Shown piece by piece: positions 55,274 through 57,365 of a stretch of DNA of 64,000 nucleotides (positions within the stretch are counted from its first letter, which is position 1; each line of letters begins with the position of its first letter). The stretch is from a phage. The position numbers were made by a program, and so were the translations under genes. Under the pieces are notes generated by a model. That model ran no database searches. It had not been told where the DNA came from and saw only the letters and a program-made list of their open reading frames with translations. The DNA lies in sequence record PV946933.1; one strand, given 5' to 3'.

Positions 55274-55346
55274 TGGGAATTAGCCAAGTTGGTAAGGCAT
55301 AGCATTTTGACTGCTAGATGCAAAGGTTCGAGTCCTTTATTCCCAG
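55274..55346 (+). tRNA. tRNA-Gln (anticodon UUG)
   Basis: cloverleaf read by eye: acceptor tgggaat/attccca, anticodon loop ttTTGac. Confidence 0.85.
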
Positions 55347-55347
55347 C

Positions 55348-55434
55348 GCGAGAATGGTCAAATTGGTAAAGGCACAGCACTTAAAATGCTGCGGAATGAT
55401 TTCCTTGTGGGTTCGAGTCCCACTTCTCGCACCA
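55348..55434 (+). tRNA. tRNA-Leu (UAA), type II, CCA encoded
   Basis: acceptor gcgagaa/ttctcgc; loop cTTAAaa; long variable arm. Confidence 0.85.
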
Positions 55435-55439
55435 AATTT

Positions 55440-55513
<74 letters not shown>

Positions 55514-55523
55514 ATTTAATTTA

Positions 55524-55597
55524 CTCCGTGTAGCTCAGTTTGGTAGAGCGCCTGATTTGGGATCAGGAGGTCCAAGGTTCAAATCCTTGTATGGAGA
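55524..55597 (+). tRNA. tRNA-Pro (UGG)
   Basis: tagctcagtttggtagagc D-arm; loop tTTGGGa. Confidence 0.85.
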
Positions 55598-55599
55598 CT

Positions 55600-55689
55600 G
55601 GAGGCGTGGCAGAGTGGTTTAATGCACCGGTCTTGAAAACCGGCAGTCGCTCCGGCGACTCATAGGTTCAAATCCTATCGCCTCCGCCA
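55600..55689 (+). tRNA. tRNA-Ser (UGA), type II
   Basis: acceptor ggaggcg/cgcctcc; loop cTTGAaa; long variable arm. Confidence 0.85.
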
Positions 55690-55694
55690 GTTTT

Positions 55695-55770
55695 GCTGAT
55701 TTAGCTCAGTAGGTAGAGCAACTCACTTGTAATGAGAAGGTCGGCGGTTCGATTCCGTCAATCAGCACCA
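55695..55770 (+). tRNA. tRNA-Thr (UGU)
   Basis: acceptor gctgatt/aatcagc; loop cTTGTAa. Confidence 0.85.
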
Positions 55771-55771
55771 A

Positions 55772-55846
55772 GGCCCTGTAGCTGGAAGGTTCAAGCAAGC
55801 GACTCATAATCGCCAGATGGTGGTTCAATTCCACCCAGGGCCACCA
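55772..55846 (+). tRNA. tRNA-Ile (CAU, lysidine type) or Met
   Basis: acceptor ggccctg/cagggcc; loop cTCATAa. Confidence 0.75.
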
Positions 55847-55859
55847 AATTAAGAATTAA

Positions 55860-55946
55860 GGGGAGTTATCCCGTAGAGGTAGCGGTGTGGACTGTAAATC
55901 CATTGTCATTGCGACTCGGGTGGTTCGACTCCATCACTCCCCACCA
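55860..55946 (+). tRNA. tRNA-Tyr (GUA), type II
   Basis: acceptor ggggagt/actcccc; loop cTGTAaa; long variable arm. Confidence 0.8.
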
Positions 55947-55950
55947 ATTT

Positions 55951-56025
55951 GGATGTGTAGCTCAATGGCAGAGCGATCGCCTGTTAAGCGATTGGTTATA
56001 GGTTCGAATCCTATCACGTCCGCCA
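55951..56025 (+). tRNA. tRNA-Asn (GUU)
   Basis: acceptor ggatgtg/cacgtcc; loop cTGTTAa. Confidence 0.8.
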
Positions 56026-56029
56026 AATC

Positions 56030-56105
56030 CGAGGCATAGCTCAGAAGGAAGAGCAAGGACCTTCTAAGTCCTGGGTCGTAGGTTCGATCCCTACTGCCTC
56101 GACCA
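56030..56105 (+). tRNA. tRNA-Arg (UCU)
   Basis: acceptor cgaggca/tgcctcg; loop cTTCTAa. Confidence 0.85.
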
Positions 56106-56121: not shown

Positions 56122-56472
56122 ATGAAAGGTAATGTTTATTTAGTAGTTCATGATTTAACATTCTATTTTAATCACAATGACACTGTTATTTCTGAACGTG
56201 TAATTAATTTACTTTATCAGCATGCAGATTATGTTTATGTCGAAAACGAATACGGTCATTGGCAATTTCTCAAAAATCGTTCATTTGGTTTAGATGGTTA
56301 CGAATACTTTGAACGTAAAGACCTTTTAGATAAAATTCCATTATCTACACAATATCAAAATCACAAGTCTTTATATAAATGCCGTCCAATTCGAAATGCT
56401 GAATCTGCGTATGAAGTAATTGATTTATGGCGTAAACGTCGTGGACAGGTTGATGCTTTAAAAGAATACTAA
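56122..56472 (+). CDS. hypothetical protein (116 aa) immediately after the tRNA cluster
   Basis: GAGGAAAA RBS; no recognisable motif. Confidence 0.5.
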   Translation: MKGNVYLVVHDLTFYFNHNDTVISERVINLLYQHADYVYVENEYGHWQFLKNRSFGLDGYEYFERKDLLDKIPLSTQYQNHKSLYKCRPIRNAESAYEVIDLWRKRRGQVDALKEY

Positions 56473-56559
56473 GAAACCGGGTCGCTATCGGTAAGTCGTC
56501 GGACTGATGTTCCCTGGAGTATAGTTTCTCCCACAGTTTTACTGTGTTCTGATTCTTTA

Positions 56560-56730
56560 CTATCACAGCAGAAACGGCGCATCAAATTATCGATTCGAGG
56601 AAATATCTTTGCCGTAAGCCGAGTAGCGTTTTTGACGGAACGTTCGGATATGGTCGAGATATGGCCTTTTAAAAATATTAAGTAGCGTCAACTGCTTAAT
56701 AACCGGGTTCGAATCCCGGCGTTTCGTACA
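56560..56730 (+). ncRNA. candidate small stable RNA with tRNA-like 3' module
   Basis: T-arm ccggg-TTCGAAT-cccgg followed by a 7-nt strand (cgtttcg) complementary to cggaacg at 56636-56642; no ORF; boundaries approximate. Confidence 0.35.
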
Positions 56731-56779
56731 AACACTTGCCTTAGCAGGTGGAACCCCGACAAGGTTGCCGCAAGGCTTA

Positions 56780-56806
56780 GCCCCGACCGAAAGGTTGGGG
56801 CTTTTT
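56780..56806 (+). terminator. rho-independent terminator gccccgacc-gaaa-ggttggggc plus TTTTT
   Basis: 9-bp stem, GAAA loop, T5 tail. Confidence 0.7.
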
Positions 56807-56808
56807 AG

Positions 56809-56855: not shown

Positions 56856-57329
56856 ATGAAATCATATGCTCAATTTTTAAATGAAGTGGTGTTAAATGAA
56901 GCATCCGCTTCAGATGTTCGCGCTGTAGCAACTGCTGCTATTAAAGCTGGTAAATATTCTTATAAAGATGCTTCTGACGAATCCCGGTACAAGTTCTACG
57001 ACGATATGAGAGCTGAAGGCTTTGTGGGTAACTATGTTACCACCGCCTGGAAAAGTCTGGTTGCTACTGGTGCGGCTTTCGAAAAACCTTCCGGTAAACC
57101 TGCTCCTAAAGCAGATCCTAAAGCTGCACAAGAAAAAAATATTGTTAAAGGAATTATCGCTAAATATGAAGCTATCCTTAAAGAGCTTTTAGTAATTAAA
57201 ACCGAAGGCCAAAAATTAGCCCGTGCCTATAGTTTCAAAGATAATCCACATGCTCATGACCTAGAGTATGTTGAAGATCTCCAAAAAATCATCAAAGACC
57301 GCATTTGGTCTGCTAAACAAATCAAATAA
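56856..57329 (+). CDS. internal-protein-like head protein with capsid-targeting leader (157 aa)
   Basis: N-terminus MKSYAQFLNEVVLNE. Confidence 0.6.
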   Translation: MKSYAQFLNEVVLNEASASDVRAVATAAIKAGKYSYKDASDESRYKFYDDMRAEGFVGNYVTTAWKSLVATGAAFEKPSGKPAPKADPKAAQEKNIVKGIIAKYEAILKELLVIKTEGQKLARAYSFKDNPHAHDLEYVEDLQKIIKDRIWSAKQIK

Positions 57330-57337
57330 CATTCTTA

Positions 57338-57365
57338 GCCTCGACCGAAAGGTTGGGGCTTTTTA
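57338..57365 (+). terminator. rho-independent terminator gcctcgacc-gaaa-ggttggggc plus TTTT (repeat of the one at 56780)
   Basis: stem-loop plus T-run; one mismatch relative to the upstream copy. Confidence 0.7.

What the first reader, a model, noticed from the sequence alone, without database searches (positions are those of the whole stretch)
56473..56779. About 300-bp non-coding stretch with a tRNA-like 3' module, candidate small stable RNA(s)
No plausible ORF exists on either strand. The region contains a canonical T-arm (ccggg-TTCGAAT-cccgg) followed by a 7-nt strand cgtttcg that can pair with cggaacg about 90 nt upstream to give an acceptor-like helix, but no canonical D or anticodon arms. 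It ends at a strong terminator. T4 carries two small stable RNAs of unknown function near its tRNA genes; this region may encode their counterparts or a divergent tRNA-like RNA.
Basis: partly seen in the sequence, partly recalled or inferred. Interest (0 to 1): 0.55.

Follow-up and report, generated by a model that had tools for sequence, protein, structure and literature searches.

The report
T4-type stable RNAs rnaD and rnaC
This stretch holds the T2/T4 phage genes for the two small stable RNAs (species 2/rnaD and species 1/rnaC) at the end of the phage tRNA cluster; they have been known since the 1970s, their function is still unknown, and comparison with related phages shows that rnaC folds like a tRNA without a free anticodon.

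Summary
The window comes from a T2/T4-like phage (Tequatrovirus). Region 56473-56779 is the ortholog of rnaD (species 2 RNA, about 56469-56584) and rnaC (species 1 RNA, 56591-56730). A conserved 3' trailer and an intrinsic terminator (56779-56808) follow. The layout matches the annotated T2L record AJ880101, including the trna.2 ORF. Identity to T2L is 109/116 for rnaD and 136/140 for rnaC, and rnaC is 137/140 identical to T4.

The T-arm and terminator it described are real. Its acceptor helix is not: across 30 homologs from about ten phage genera, CGUUUCG pairs with the 5' end of rnaC (CGAUUCG, 56591-56597), not with CGGAACG.

The covariation-supported fold of rnaC has a 7-bp acceptor stem, a T-arm, a 3' end resembling NCCA, and a long arm plus a hairpin. 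The loops of these two (UUGACG and CGUCAA) are complementary and covary, which suggests a kissing contact. rnaD is also a conserved structured RNA and occurs in rV5-like phages too.

No Rfam family matches either RNA. Their function remains unknown; a tRNA-mimic decoy role is my inference only. This is a known element, so interest is modest.

The parts
56469..56584 (+). rnaD (species 2 RNA) ortholog, T2-type. The 5' (56471-56516) and 3' (56561-56584) ends are conserved. The central module (56517-56560) is variable.
   Evidence: Coordinates were transferred from RB6 (KM606996) and T2L (AJ880101) annotation. Identity is 109/116 to T2L. The conserved ends and two alternative central modules are visible.
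56476..56492 (+). rnaD 5' hairpin: stem 56476-56480 / 56488-56492, loop GUCGCUA.
   Evidence: RNAalifold on 11 rnaD homologs shows compensatory changes at 4 of 5 pairs. The whole stem is replaced in Karamvirus and Jiaodavirus while the hairpin is kept.
56495..56580 (+). rnaD long hairpin. The base helix is G56495 and 56497-56501 with 56575-56580. An inner helix follows, then the conserved CCCUG, then distal T2-type hairpins (56516-56531 and 56532-56546).
   Evidence: 22 predicted pairs, 15 with changes on both sides. The distal hairpin 56532-56546 is also listed.
56591..56730 (+). rnaC (species 1 RNA) ortholog, 140 nt by the T2L annotation. The T4 and RB6 records place it at 56590-56728.
   Evidence: Identity is 137/140 to T4 and 136/140 to T2L. 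The covariance model finds a single copy in the window, 160 bits at 56589-56731 (the window sequence is in the model, so this is not an independent test).
56591..56597 (+). rnaC acceptor-like stem, 5' strand CGAUUCG. It pairs with 56720-56726 (CGUUUCG). In this window positions 4 and 5 form a tandem U.U mismatch.
   Evidence: Pair 3 changes A-U to G-C in 21 of 30 sequences. The two U.U positions are Watson-Crick in TG1, L035 and PM2. Pair 1 changes C-G to A-U in PM2.
56598..56667 (+). rnaC long arm. H2 is AGG/CCU (56598-56600 / 56665-56667). H3 is 56604-56607 / 56658-56661. H4 is 56612-56615 / 56650-56653. H5 is 56620-56622 / 56644-46. H6 is 56627-56631 / 56638-56642. The apical loop UUGACG is at 56632-56637. 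The near-invariant GG is at 56663-56664.
   Evidence: Coordinates; pair counts. GG becomes CG only in the three sequences whose T-loop position 2 changes U to G.
56676..56701 (+). rnaC second hairpin: stem 56676-56685 / 56692-56701, loop CGUCAA at 56686-56691. The loop is complementary to 56632-56637, the proposed kissing loop.
   Evidence: Stem: 8 of 9 pairs have changes on both sides. Loop-loop contact: 99-100% of cells pair, with UUGAUG/CAUCAA in the TG1 clade and UUGGCG/CGCCAA in Marfavirus.
56703..56719 (+). rnaC T-arm: 5-bp stem and 7-nt loop UUCGAAU.
   Evidence: Covariation CCGGG/CCCGG, CCUGG/CCAGG, CUUGG/CCAAG.
56720..56730 (+). rnaC acceptor 3' strand CGUUUCG (56720-56726) followed by the 3' tail U-A-C-A (56727-56730).
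   Evidence: Across the alignment the tail reads U-[A/U/C]-C-A. It is a true U-CCA in Marfavirus and in Pectobacterium phage PM2.
56731..56778 (+). Conserved structured 3' trailer of the tRNA-cluster transcript. It holds hairpin 56733-56750 and small hairpins, and a partial direct copy of the terminator's 5' strand (CCCCGAC..AAGGUUG).
   Evidence: 77/78 identical to T2L when counted together with the terminator. Fold z-score is -3.9. It is kept even in a T4-like contig that lacks rnaC.
56779..56808 (+). Intrinsic terminator: 10-bp stem, GAAA loop, U-run. It ends the tRNA/rnaD/rnaC transcription unit.
   Evidence: PMC2330249 states that T4 tRNA-cluster transcription terminates after the species I gene.
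56122..56472 (+). Context: ORF trna.2 (116 aa, function unknown) lies between tRNA-Arg and rnaD. Its stop codon overlaps the start of rnaD homology.
   Evidence: 333/351 nt and 110 of 117 aligned codons (stop codon included) match T2L trna.2. It falls in phrog_3355, function unknown.

Best explanation
The interval is the 3' end of a T2-type phage tRNA operon. It encodes the orthologs of the T-even small stable RNAs rnaD (species 2) and rnaC (species 1), then a conserved trailer and the operon terminator.

Shown here:
- Identity and synteny with the annotated T4, RB6 and T2L genes.
- For rnaC, a covariation-supported fold. A 7-bp acceptor-like stem is formed by the 5' and 3' ends. A canonical 5-bp T-stem with a 7-nt T-loop and a 3' tail of the form U-N-C-A complete a tRNA 'top half'.
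- In place of D and anticodon arms, rnaC has a 3-bp helix carrying a long irregular arm, plus a 9-10-bp hairpin. The apical loops of these two are complementary to each other and covary.
- For rnaD, a 5' hairpin plus a long hairpin with a swappable distal module.

Inferred:
- Both RNAs are cut from the polycistronic tRNA precursor by the host tRNA-processing machinery. RNase P would cleave 5' of C56591, because rnaC presents an acceptor/T-arm minihelix and in other genera sits 4-6 nt from flanking tRNA genes.
- 3' ends would be made by downstream cleavage and exonuclease trimming. rnaD would be released between the preceding tRNA's 3' end (or, in this window, the trna.2 ORF) and the rnaC RNase P cut.
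- The mature RNAs are compact and therefore stable.
- rnaC cannot decode, because it has no free anticodon loop. Its most likely role is as a tRNA mimic that engages some protein binding the tRNA acceptor/T-arm, acting as a decoy or sponge that is useful only in some hosts. That last step is speculation; the function is experimentally unknown.
For: Homology and synteny.

rnaC structure: RNAalifold on 16 sequences gives 39 pairs, 25 of them compensatory. On 30 sequences from Tequatro-, Gapriver-, Karam-, Moon-, Kanagawa-, Gelderland-, Teguna-, Winkler-, Mosuguk- and Marfavirus, 46 pairs are 92.7% paired and 30 pairs show changes on both sides. No shuffle of 500 reaches this, and slid controls pair at 36-51%.

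Kissing loops: 100% paired on 16 sequences and 99.4% on 30, with two independent double substitutions.

tRNA-like 3' end: encoded UCCA in Marfavirus and PM2, and a perfect 7-bp acceptor in PM2.

Possible GG/T-loop contact: G to C co-occurs with T-loop U to G in IME523, L038 and LC53.

Gene context: rnaC lies between tRNA-Trp and tRNA-Gly in Karamvirus, between tRNA-Phe and tRNA-Trp in Winklervirus, and after tRNA-Met in Marfavirus.

rnaD structure and spread.

[quoted passage not shown] They are detected as late-accumulating RNAs by RNA-seq and northern blot (PMC9697503). The T4 primary transcript carries eight tRNAs plus species I and II and ends after species I (PMC2330249). A SNP in rnaD was fixed in all lines of a T4-like phage adapting to host ECOR34 (PMC12685909).
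Against: No expression or processing data exist for this particular phage. The T2L record itself marks rnaD as 'putative', predicted from homology of its ends.

The kissing loop rests on only two independent covariation events. It is reduced to 4 bp (GACG/CGUC) in PM2. DNA-level inverted-repeat selection cannot be formally excluded.

The GG/T-loop contact rests on one clade.

Nothing tested here bears on the decoy function. rnaC is precisely replaced by an ORF cassette in one T4-like contig, so it is dispensable at least there.

The window's 3' tail is ACA, not CCA.
Confidence: 0.85

Rival explanations
1. A divergent or intron-containing tRNA gene, or a tRNA pseudogene. Its acceptor stem would be CGGAACG (56637-56643) paired with CGUUUCG (56720-56726).
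For: cmscan aligns 56635-56727 weakly to tRNA-Sec using this helix (17.3 bits). PG7 annotates a 95-nt 'tRNA-Met' at the equivalent place.
Against: The score is far below the gathering threshold, and default ARAGORN finds nothing. On 16 homologs the helix is only 81% paired with no pair changed on both sides. It competes with a hairpin that is 100% paired with 5 of 6 pairs compensated. In Melville, PEi20, Marfavirus, EnC15 and PM2 the internal strand has diverged and can no longer pair. The mature RNA annotated in T4 and T2L starts about 45 nt upstream of this strand.
Confidence: 0.03
2. Both RNAs are processing by-products with no function of their own. They would be structured spacers of the tRNA operon that simply resist nucleases.
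For: The function has been unknown for decades. From my own knowledge, the tRNA region is dispensable in laboratory hosts; PMC2330249 also calls it non-essential. rnaC is absent from one T4-like contig. The central module of rnaD is swapped between T2-type and T4-type phages.
Against: rnaC is 95-100% conserved across hundreds of Tequatroviruses and recognisable in about ten genera. Helices are kept through many compensatory changes, and loops and linkers are invariant. rnaD is kept in unrelated rV5-like phages. A SNP in rnaD was fixed convergently in host adaptation.
Confidence: 0.08
3. They act in cis. The structured elements would organise maturation of the polycistronic tRNA precursor (entry sites for RNase III, E or P, or protection of the 3' end) rather than acting as free RNAs.
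For: The elements always lie inside or at the end of tRNA clusters. From my own recollection, unverified here, T4 species 1 RNA and its surroundings were used as RNase III, RNase E and RNase P substrates in 1970s-80s work. The trailer is conserved.
Against: The mature RNAs accumulate as abundant stable species late in infection. A conserved tRNA-like 3' end and an intramolecular loop-loop contact are not needed for a mere cleavage site.
Confidence: 0.1
4. They are trans-acting base-pairing regulatory sRNAs that target host or phage mRNAs, possibly with Hfq or ProQ.
For: Some papers call them 'small regulatory RNAs'. The 3' trailer plus terminator looks like a 3'-derived sRNA: hairpins followed by a terminator U-tail.
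Against: No target or seed was identified. No similarity to the E. coli genome was found. The mature rnaC and rnaD lack the terminator U-tail that typical Hfq-dependent sRNAs carry.
Confidence: 0.08
5. Small proteins are encoded here, as 'hypothetical protein' calls in several deposited genomes imply.
For: Several records annotate one or two hypothetical proteins over the match.
Against: Only 21-38-aa ORFs lie within the region. The substitution pattern is paired compensatory change in helices, not codon-like. Curated T4, RB and T2L records annotate ncRNAs.
Confidence: 0.01

Closest known systems
Bacteriophage T4/T2 species 1 RNA (rnaC)
   Same: 137/140 nt identical to T4 and 136/140 to T2L. 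It occupies the same position, after rnaD and before the conserved trailer and terminator.
   Different: Nothing substantive. Three substitutions relative to T4: two in the second hairpin that keep pairing, and one in a loop of the long arm.
Bacteriophage T4/T2 species 2 RNA (rnaD)
   Same: The 5' 46 nt and the 3' roughly 24 nt are near-identical to T4 and RB6. The whole RNA is 109/116 identical to T2L rnaD.
   Different: The central roughly 45 nt belong to the T2 type and are not homologous to the T4 type (92/126 overall against RB6). As in T2L, it follows the trna.2 ORF rather than abutting tRNA-Arg.
Canonical tRNA (Rfam RF00005; ARAGORN)
   Same: 7-bp acceptor stem made by the two ends. It is directly followed on the 3' side by a 5-bp T-stem with loop UUCGAAU. 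The tail is discriminator-like U plus NCA. The gene sits among tRNA genes. A GG may contact the T-loop.
   Different: There is no D-arm or anticodon arm of canonical size and no free 7-nt anticodon loop. It is 140 nt long and is not detected by tRNA models.
tRNA-like domain of tmRNA
   Same: The 5' and 3' ends form an acceptor stem next to a T-arm, and a long helix leaves where the D/anticodon region would be.
   Different: There is no tag reading frame and no pseudoknot array. An extra hairpin lies between the long arm and the T-arm. ARAGORN tmRNA search and Rfam give nothing.
Bacterial Y-RNA-like tRNA mimics (YrlA) and viral tRNA-like structures
   Same: The concept is shared: a non-decoding RNA that copies the tRNA acceptor/T-arm shape and is handled by tRNA enzymes. 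This comparison is from my own knowledge and was not tested here.
   Different: In YrlA the tRNA-like module is internal and the ends form a Ro-binding stem. Plant-virus tRNA-like structures have pseudoknotted acceptors at mRNA 3' ends. No Rfam match to any such family at E up to 10.
3' external transcribed spacer sRNAs of tRNA operons (e.g. E. coli 3'ETS-leuZ)
   Same: This applies only to the trailer 56731-56808: a conserved, structured end of a tRNA operon finishing in a terminator hairpin. From my own knowledge, as an analogy.
   Different: There is no evidence that the trailer accumulates or binds Hfq.

Membership tests
T-even species 1 RNA (rnaC) | Sequence homology to the annotated T4/T2L rnaC over its full length | tested here: met
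   137/140 to T4 and 136/140 to T2L; alignment.
T-even species 1 RNA (rnaC) | Position at the 3' end of the tRNA cluster, after rnaD and before the terminator | tested here: met
T-even species 1 RNA (rnaC) | Accumulates as a stable RNA of about 140 nt in infected cells | not testable with these tools
   Shown for T4 in the literature (PMC9697503); no data for this phage.
T-even species 2 RNA (rnaD) | Homology of the 5' and 3' ends to T4 rnaD, immediately upstream of rnaC | tested here: met
T-even species 2 RNA (rnaD) | Shared secondary structure: 5' hairpin plus long hairpin with a conserved base | tested here: met
   22 pairs, 15 with changes on both sides.
T-even species 2 RNA (rnaD) | Stable RNA of about 116-120 nt produced from the T2-type gene | not testable with these tools
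   The T2L record calls it 'putative', predicted by end homology.
tRNA | Reaches the Rfam gathering score or an ARAGORN call | tested here: not met
   No hit at gathering. Best is tRNA-Sec at 17.3 bits against 47. ARAGORN default finds nothing.
tRNA | 7-bp acceptor stem contiguous with a 5-bp T-stem and 7-nt T-loop | tested here: met
tRNA | D-arm and a 5-bp anticodon stem with a free 7-nt loop | tested here: not met
   These are replaced by a 70-nt arm and a 9-10-bp hairpin with a 6-nt loop that pairs with the arm's apical loop.
tRNA | 3'-terminal NCCA, and aminoacylation | tested here: inconclusive
   The window encodes U-ACA; Marfavirus and PM2 encode U-CCA. Aminoacylation cannot be tested here.
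tmRNA | tRNA-like domain plus a tag-peptide reading frame and pseudoknots | tested here: not met
   ARAGORN tmRNA search finds nothing. No Rfam tmRNA hit at E up to 10.
Any Rfam 15 family | Match at the family's gathering score | tested here: not met
   neither rnaC nor rnaD has an Rfam family.

The most novel reading that the evidence does not exclude
rnaC may define an undescribed structural class of phage RNA that is absent from Rfam. It would be a tRNA-shaped molecule with acceptor stem, T-arm, NCA/CCA end and a GG/T-loop elbow, whose anticodon-equivalent loop is permanently masked by an intramolecular 6-bp kissing contact. It would act as a non-decoding tRNA mimic, for example a decoy for host immunity factors or toxins that act on the tRNA acceptor end or body. 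That would explain why it travels with phage tRNA clusters and is needed only in some hosts. rnaD would be a second independent module of the same accessory tool-kit, shared even with rV5-like phages.
Probability: 0.2. Interest if true: 0.7.

Novelty: already known. Interest (0 to 1): 0.3.

Why it matters
As an object, this region is ordinary. It is the T2-type copy of two RNAs sequenced in the 1970s and annotated in GenBank.

It matters only because their function is still an open question after 50 years. The comparative model assembled here gives concrete handles for experiments:
- the true acceptor stem, with its conserved tandem U.U mismatch;
- the NCA/CCA 3' end;
- the covarying loop-loop contact;
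- the spread over about ten genera for rnaC, and to Vequintavirinae for rnaD.

Practical uses are compensatory mutants, precise deletions, pull-downs, and seed alignments for two missing Rfam families. The model would also stop rnaC from being mis-annotated as an odd tRNA or as hypothetical proteins.

Tried and rejected
- Rfam at gathering and at E up to 10: only chance-level hits.
- ARAGORN tRNA and tmRNA searches: nothing by default. With introns allowed it makes a call that uses the rejected acceptor helix. A construct with the long arm deleted gave only a forced 'tRNA-SeC with intron' at lowered thresholds.
- Search for more distant rnaC relatives, to add independent covariation events. 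Three IMG/VR pattern scans and one metagenome scan returned only the same clades plus three chance hits.
- BLAST iterations did add Ursula, VR7, LC53 and PM2.
- E. coli genomes: no similarity to rnaD or rnaC, so there is no evidence that they copy a host RNA sequence.
- Promoter scan: promoter-like sites are no more frequent than in shuffles, so nothing was inferred.
- Literature searches for a function. Only statements of unknown function were found. The classic papers (Paddock and Abelson; Apirion lab; Miller 2003) are not in the held library, so anything I say about RNase III, E or P work on species 1 is from memory.
- PHROGs for the flanking ORFs: families of unknown function.

Full report
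**Setting.** The window carries a cluster of ten tRNA genes at 55274-56105, in the order Gln, Leu, Gly, Pro, Ser, Thr, Met(CAU), Tyr, Asn, Arg. The 343 bases around the finding match about 800 phage records. Nearly all are Tequatrovirus (T4/T2-like), at 84-99% identity, and the best is Salmonella phage GRNsp7 at 99.1%. The records with careful annotation label the matched stretch rnaD and rnaC.

**Check of the observation.**
- T-arm CCGGG-TTCGAAT-CCCGG at 56703-56719.
- CGTTTCG at 56720-56726.
- CGGAACG at 56637-56643.
- A 10-bp terminator hairpin followed by a T-run at 56779-56808.

ARAGORN and Rfam at gathering thresholds call nothing in the interval. A permissive Rfam scan gives only chance-level hits. 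No ORF longer than 38 aa lies wholly within the interval.

**Identity.** I aligned the window to RB6 (KM606996), T4 GT7 (KJ477686) and the T2L tRNA-cluster record (AJ880101) and transferred their annotation.
- rnaD (species II RNA) maps to 56469-56584.
- rnaC (species I RNA) maps to 56590-56728 by the T4/RB6 coordinates, or to 56591-56730 (140 nt) by the T2L coordinates.

The window has the T2L arrangement. A 116-aa ORF, trna.2 (56122-56472), sits between tRNA-Arg and rnaD, and its stop codon overlaps the first bases of rnaD homology. Identities to T2L are 333/351 nt for trna.2, 109/116 for rnaD, 136/140 for rnaC and 77/78 for the trailer plus terminator. rnaC is 137/140 identical to T4. rnaD has near-invariant 5' (56471-56516) and 3' (56561-56584) parts, and a central module that comes in a T2 type (this window) and an unrelated T4 type.

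[quoted passage not shown] The T4 primary transcript is described as carrying eight tRNAs plus species I and II and ending after the species I gene (PMC2330249). The same paper describes the T2L layout with trna.1 and trna.2. One experimental-evolution study found a single SNP shared by all lines of a T4-like phage adapting to E. coli ECOR34, and it lies in rnaD (PMC12685909). The classic sequencing and processing papers are not in the held library.

**Structure of rnaC.** Iterated BLAST and pattern scans recovered rnaC homologs outside Tequatrovirus:
- Karamvirus (PG7, UFV01, Pet-CM3-4, EnC15, myPSH1140)
- Moonvirus
- EcS1 (genus not retrieved here)
- Kanagawavirus (PEi20, IME523)
- Gelderlandvirus (Melville)
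- Tegunavirus (TG1)
- Gaprivervirus (VR7)
- Winklervirus (LC53)
- Mosugukvirus (PM2)
- the unclassified phage Ursula
- Marfavirus (PWKp18, EK29, Marfa-like contigs)

In these genera the element sits like a tRNA gene inside the cluster. It lies between tRNA-Trp and tRNA-Gly in Karamvirus, between tRNA-Phe and tRNA-Trp in LC53, and after tRNA-Met in Marfavirus, a few bases from its neighbours.

RNAalifold on 16 sequences predicts 39 pairs, of which 25 have compensatory changes. On a 30-sequence alignment, the full model of 46 pairs is 92.7% paired and 30 pairs show changes on both sides. No shuffle of 500 reaches the observed values, and structures slid by 1-3 columns pair at only 36-51%.

In window coordinates the model is:
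- Acceptor-like stem 56591-56597 / 56720-56726.
- Invariant 3-bp helix AGG/CCU, 56598-56600 / 56665-56667.
- A long arm of four further helices ending in loop UUGACG (56632-56637).
- An A-rich linker.
- A 9-10-bp hairpin 56676-56701 with loop CGUCAA (56686-56691).
- The T-arm 56703-56719.
- The 3' tail UACA.

**The acceptor stem.** Only 81% of its cells pair and none changes on both sides. That strand belongs to a local hairpin that is 100% paired, with 5 of 6 pairs compensated. The true partner is the 5' end of rnaC. Pair 3 switches between A-U and G-C. Positions 4 and 5 are a conserved tandem U.U in 27 of 30 sequences but are Watson-Crick in TG1, L035 and PM2. In PM2 pair 1 changes from C-G to A-U, and the stem is a perfect 7 bp followed by U-CCA. 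The tail after the stem reads U-[A/U/C]-C-A-A throughout, and Marfavirus also encodes UCCA. rnaC therefore has the complete 'top half' of a tRNA: a 12-bp acceptor/T-stem stack, a T-loop and an NCCA-like end. That explains the odd tRNA labels on this locus in some deposited genomes.

**Tertiary contacts.** The apical loop of the long arm (UUGACG) is the exact reverse complement of the loop of the second hairpin (CGUCAA). The two covary: UUGAUG/CAUCAA in the TG1 clade and UUGGCG/CGCCAA in Marfavirus. All cells pair on 16 sequences, 99.4% pair on 30, and slid controls pair at 15-51%. PM2 keeps only GACG/CGUC. This supports a kissing-loop contact, but on two independent events only.

Separately, the near-invariant GG at 56663-56664, just 5' of the CCU strand, becomes CG in exactly the three sequences (IME523, L038, LC53) whose T-loop changes from UUCGAAU to UGCAUGC or UGCAUCC. 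The change is U to G at the second T-loop position, while the C at the third position stays. This is what a tRNA-like G18:U55 / G19:C56 elbow contact would predict. It is one clade, so I treat it as a hint.

**Structure and spread of rnaD.** Within Tequatroviruses the 5' hairpin shows an A-U to G-C change, and the distal part is swapped as a module. Unexpectedly, the conserved core of rnaD also occurs elsewhere:
- In a Vequintavirinae phage (LTH01, directly after tRNA-Met).
- In phage MirsaeidiM_Esher1 (directly before tRNA-Thr).
- In the tRNA-Asn to tRNA-Asp gap of Karamvirus and Jiaodavirus genomes.

RNAalifold on 11 such sequences gives 22 pairs, 15 of them with changes on both sides. The elements are a 5' hairpin (window 56476-56492) whose stem sequence is entirely replaced in some lineages, a conserved base helix (56495-56501 / 56575-56580), an inner helix that covaries, a conserved CCCUG, and a variable distal hairpin. 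rnaD is thus a real structured RNA family and an independent module, not just a spacer. It shows no tRNA-like features.

**Trailer and terminator.** Bases 56731-56778 are almost invariant among Tequatroviruses and fold well, with a z-score of -3.9 when folded together with the terminator. They are retained in a T4-like contig in which rnaC itself has been precisely replaced by about 100 nt plus a 127-aa ORF. The terminator at 56779-56808 is duplicated at 57337-57365, after the next ORF.

**How it most likely works.** Homology, synteny, the two folds and the tRNA-like module of rnaC are shown. The rest is inferred. The operon is transcribed through the tRNAs, trna.2, rnaD and rnaC to the terminator. 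RNase P would cut 5' of C56591, because rnaC presents a standard acceptor/T-arm substrate with U at position -1. The rnaC 3' end would be trimmed back to UACA, as for a tRNA with an encoded CCA. rnaD would be what remains between the upstream cleavage and the RNase P cut, protected by its structure.

rnaC has no free anticodon loop, so it cannot decode. Its conserved surface is the tRNA top half. I therefore consider a tRNA-mimic role most likely: binding, titrating or diverting a protein that recognises the acceptor/T-arm or the 3' end. That would fit an accessory, host-dependent benefit. I put this functional step at about 0.2-0.25. Nothing here tests it. The rivals are inert by-products, cis-acting processing elements and base-pairing sRNAs, and each is weighed in its own section.

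**Comparison and novelty.** The element is a member of the known rnaC and rnaD families. It is not a tRNA, not a tmRNA, and not a member of any Rfam 15 family. As a finding it is already known. What may be new is the comparative structural model and the taxonomic spread.

**Verdict.** Observation: partly confirmed, because the features are real but the acceptor partner is wrong. Interpretation: supported. Interest: 0.3.

Noticed in passing
window 56122-56472: A 116-aa ORF (T2L 'trna.2', phrog_3355, function unknown) is inserted between tRNA-Arg and rnaD. In T4 and RB6 rnaD abuts tRNA-Arg. Its TAA stop (56470-56472) overlaps the start of rnaD homology, so the rnaD 5' end must form differently here than in T4.
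   Followed up: partly
window 56779-56808 and 57337-57365: There are two near-identical copies of the same terminator hairpin (AGCC[C/T]CGACCGAAAGGTTGGGGCTTTTT). They bracket a 157-aa ORF (56856-57329, phrog_2280, function unknown). This looks like a cassette inserted with, or next to, a duplicated terminator.
   Followed up: partly
L021:3513-4220 (minus strand; IMGVR_UViG_2706795408_000001, 170 kb): In this T4-like contig rnaD and the trailer/terminator are intact, but rnaC is precisely replaced by about 100 nt of other structured sequence plus a 127-aa ORF. The ORF's N-terminus (MLTYAEFLN...) resembles that of the window ORF at 56856 (MKSYAQFLN...).
   Followed up: partly
L059:690-805 (Escherichia phage LTH01, Vequintavirinae); L060:700-815: rnaD-like RNAs occur outside the T4-like phages. 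One is directly after tRNA-Met in an rV5-like phage and one is directly before tRNA-Thr in another. They have a compact distal hairpin (GAGUUCCCUCAACGAUAAC) that is shared with Karamvirus and Jiaodavirus but not with T4 or T2.
   Followed up: partly
L061:575-716, L063:~575-719, L003:~505-646 (Karamvirus), L062:~575-706 (Jiaodavirus): In the tRNA-Asn to tRNA-Asp gap, the rnaD-like element is followed by a further stretch of about 130 nt. It folds into a long, very stable hairpin (CGAAAGUUUACUUUCGGAG ... CUCACGAAAGUAAAUUU). This is another unannotated structured RNA candidate in these tRNA clusters.
   Followed up: no
L003:1553-1647 (PG7 'tRNA-Met'); rows H12, H191, H226: Several GenBank records label part of rnaC as a tRNA (Met, Arg, Lys or Phe), or lay one or two 'hypothetical proteins' over rnaC and rnaD. 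These are probably annotation artefacts of tRNA finders that use the alternative CGGAACG helix, and of ORF callers.
   Followed up: partly
L018, L038, L053 (IME523 clade, LC53); equivalent to window 56663 and 56708-56714: One clade has replaced the canonical T-loop UUCGAAU with UGCAUGC or UGCAUCC. At the same time GG became CG next to helix 2, and neighbouring bases changed (GAUGAUGG to GAUGCUCG or GAUGGUCG). An alternative 4-bp pairing between the T-loop and the arm (GCAU/AUGC or CAUC/GAUG) is also possible in these sequences.
   Followed up: partly
window 56731-56808: The 3' trailer plus terminator (about 78 nt: hairpins, then a terminator with a U-tail) has the look of a 3'-derived Hfq-type sRNA or a 3' external transcribed spacer sponge. 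It contains a partial direct repeat of the terminator's 5' strand (CCCCGAC..AAGGUUG at 56754-56767).
   Followed up: no
window 55860-55946: tRNA-Tyr(GTA) only just passes the Rfam tRNA threshold (30.2 bits against 29), whereas the other nine tRNAs score 59-74 bits. It is a long-variable-arm tRNA. This is probably not a problem, but it stands out as the outlier of the cluster.
   Followed up: no
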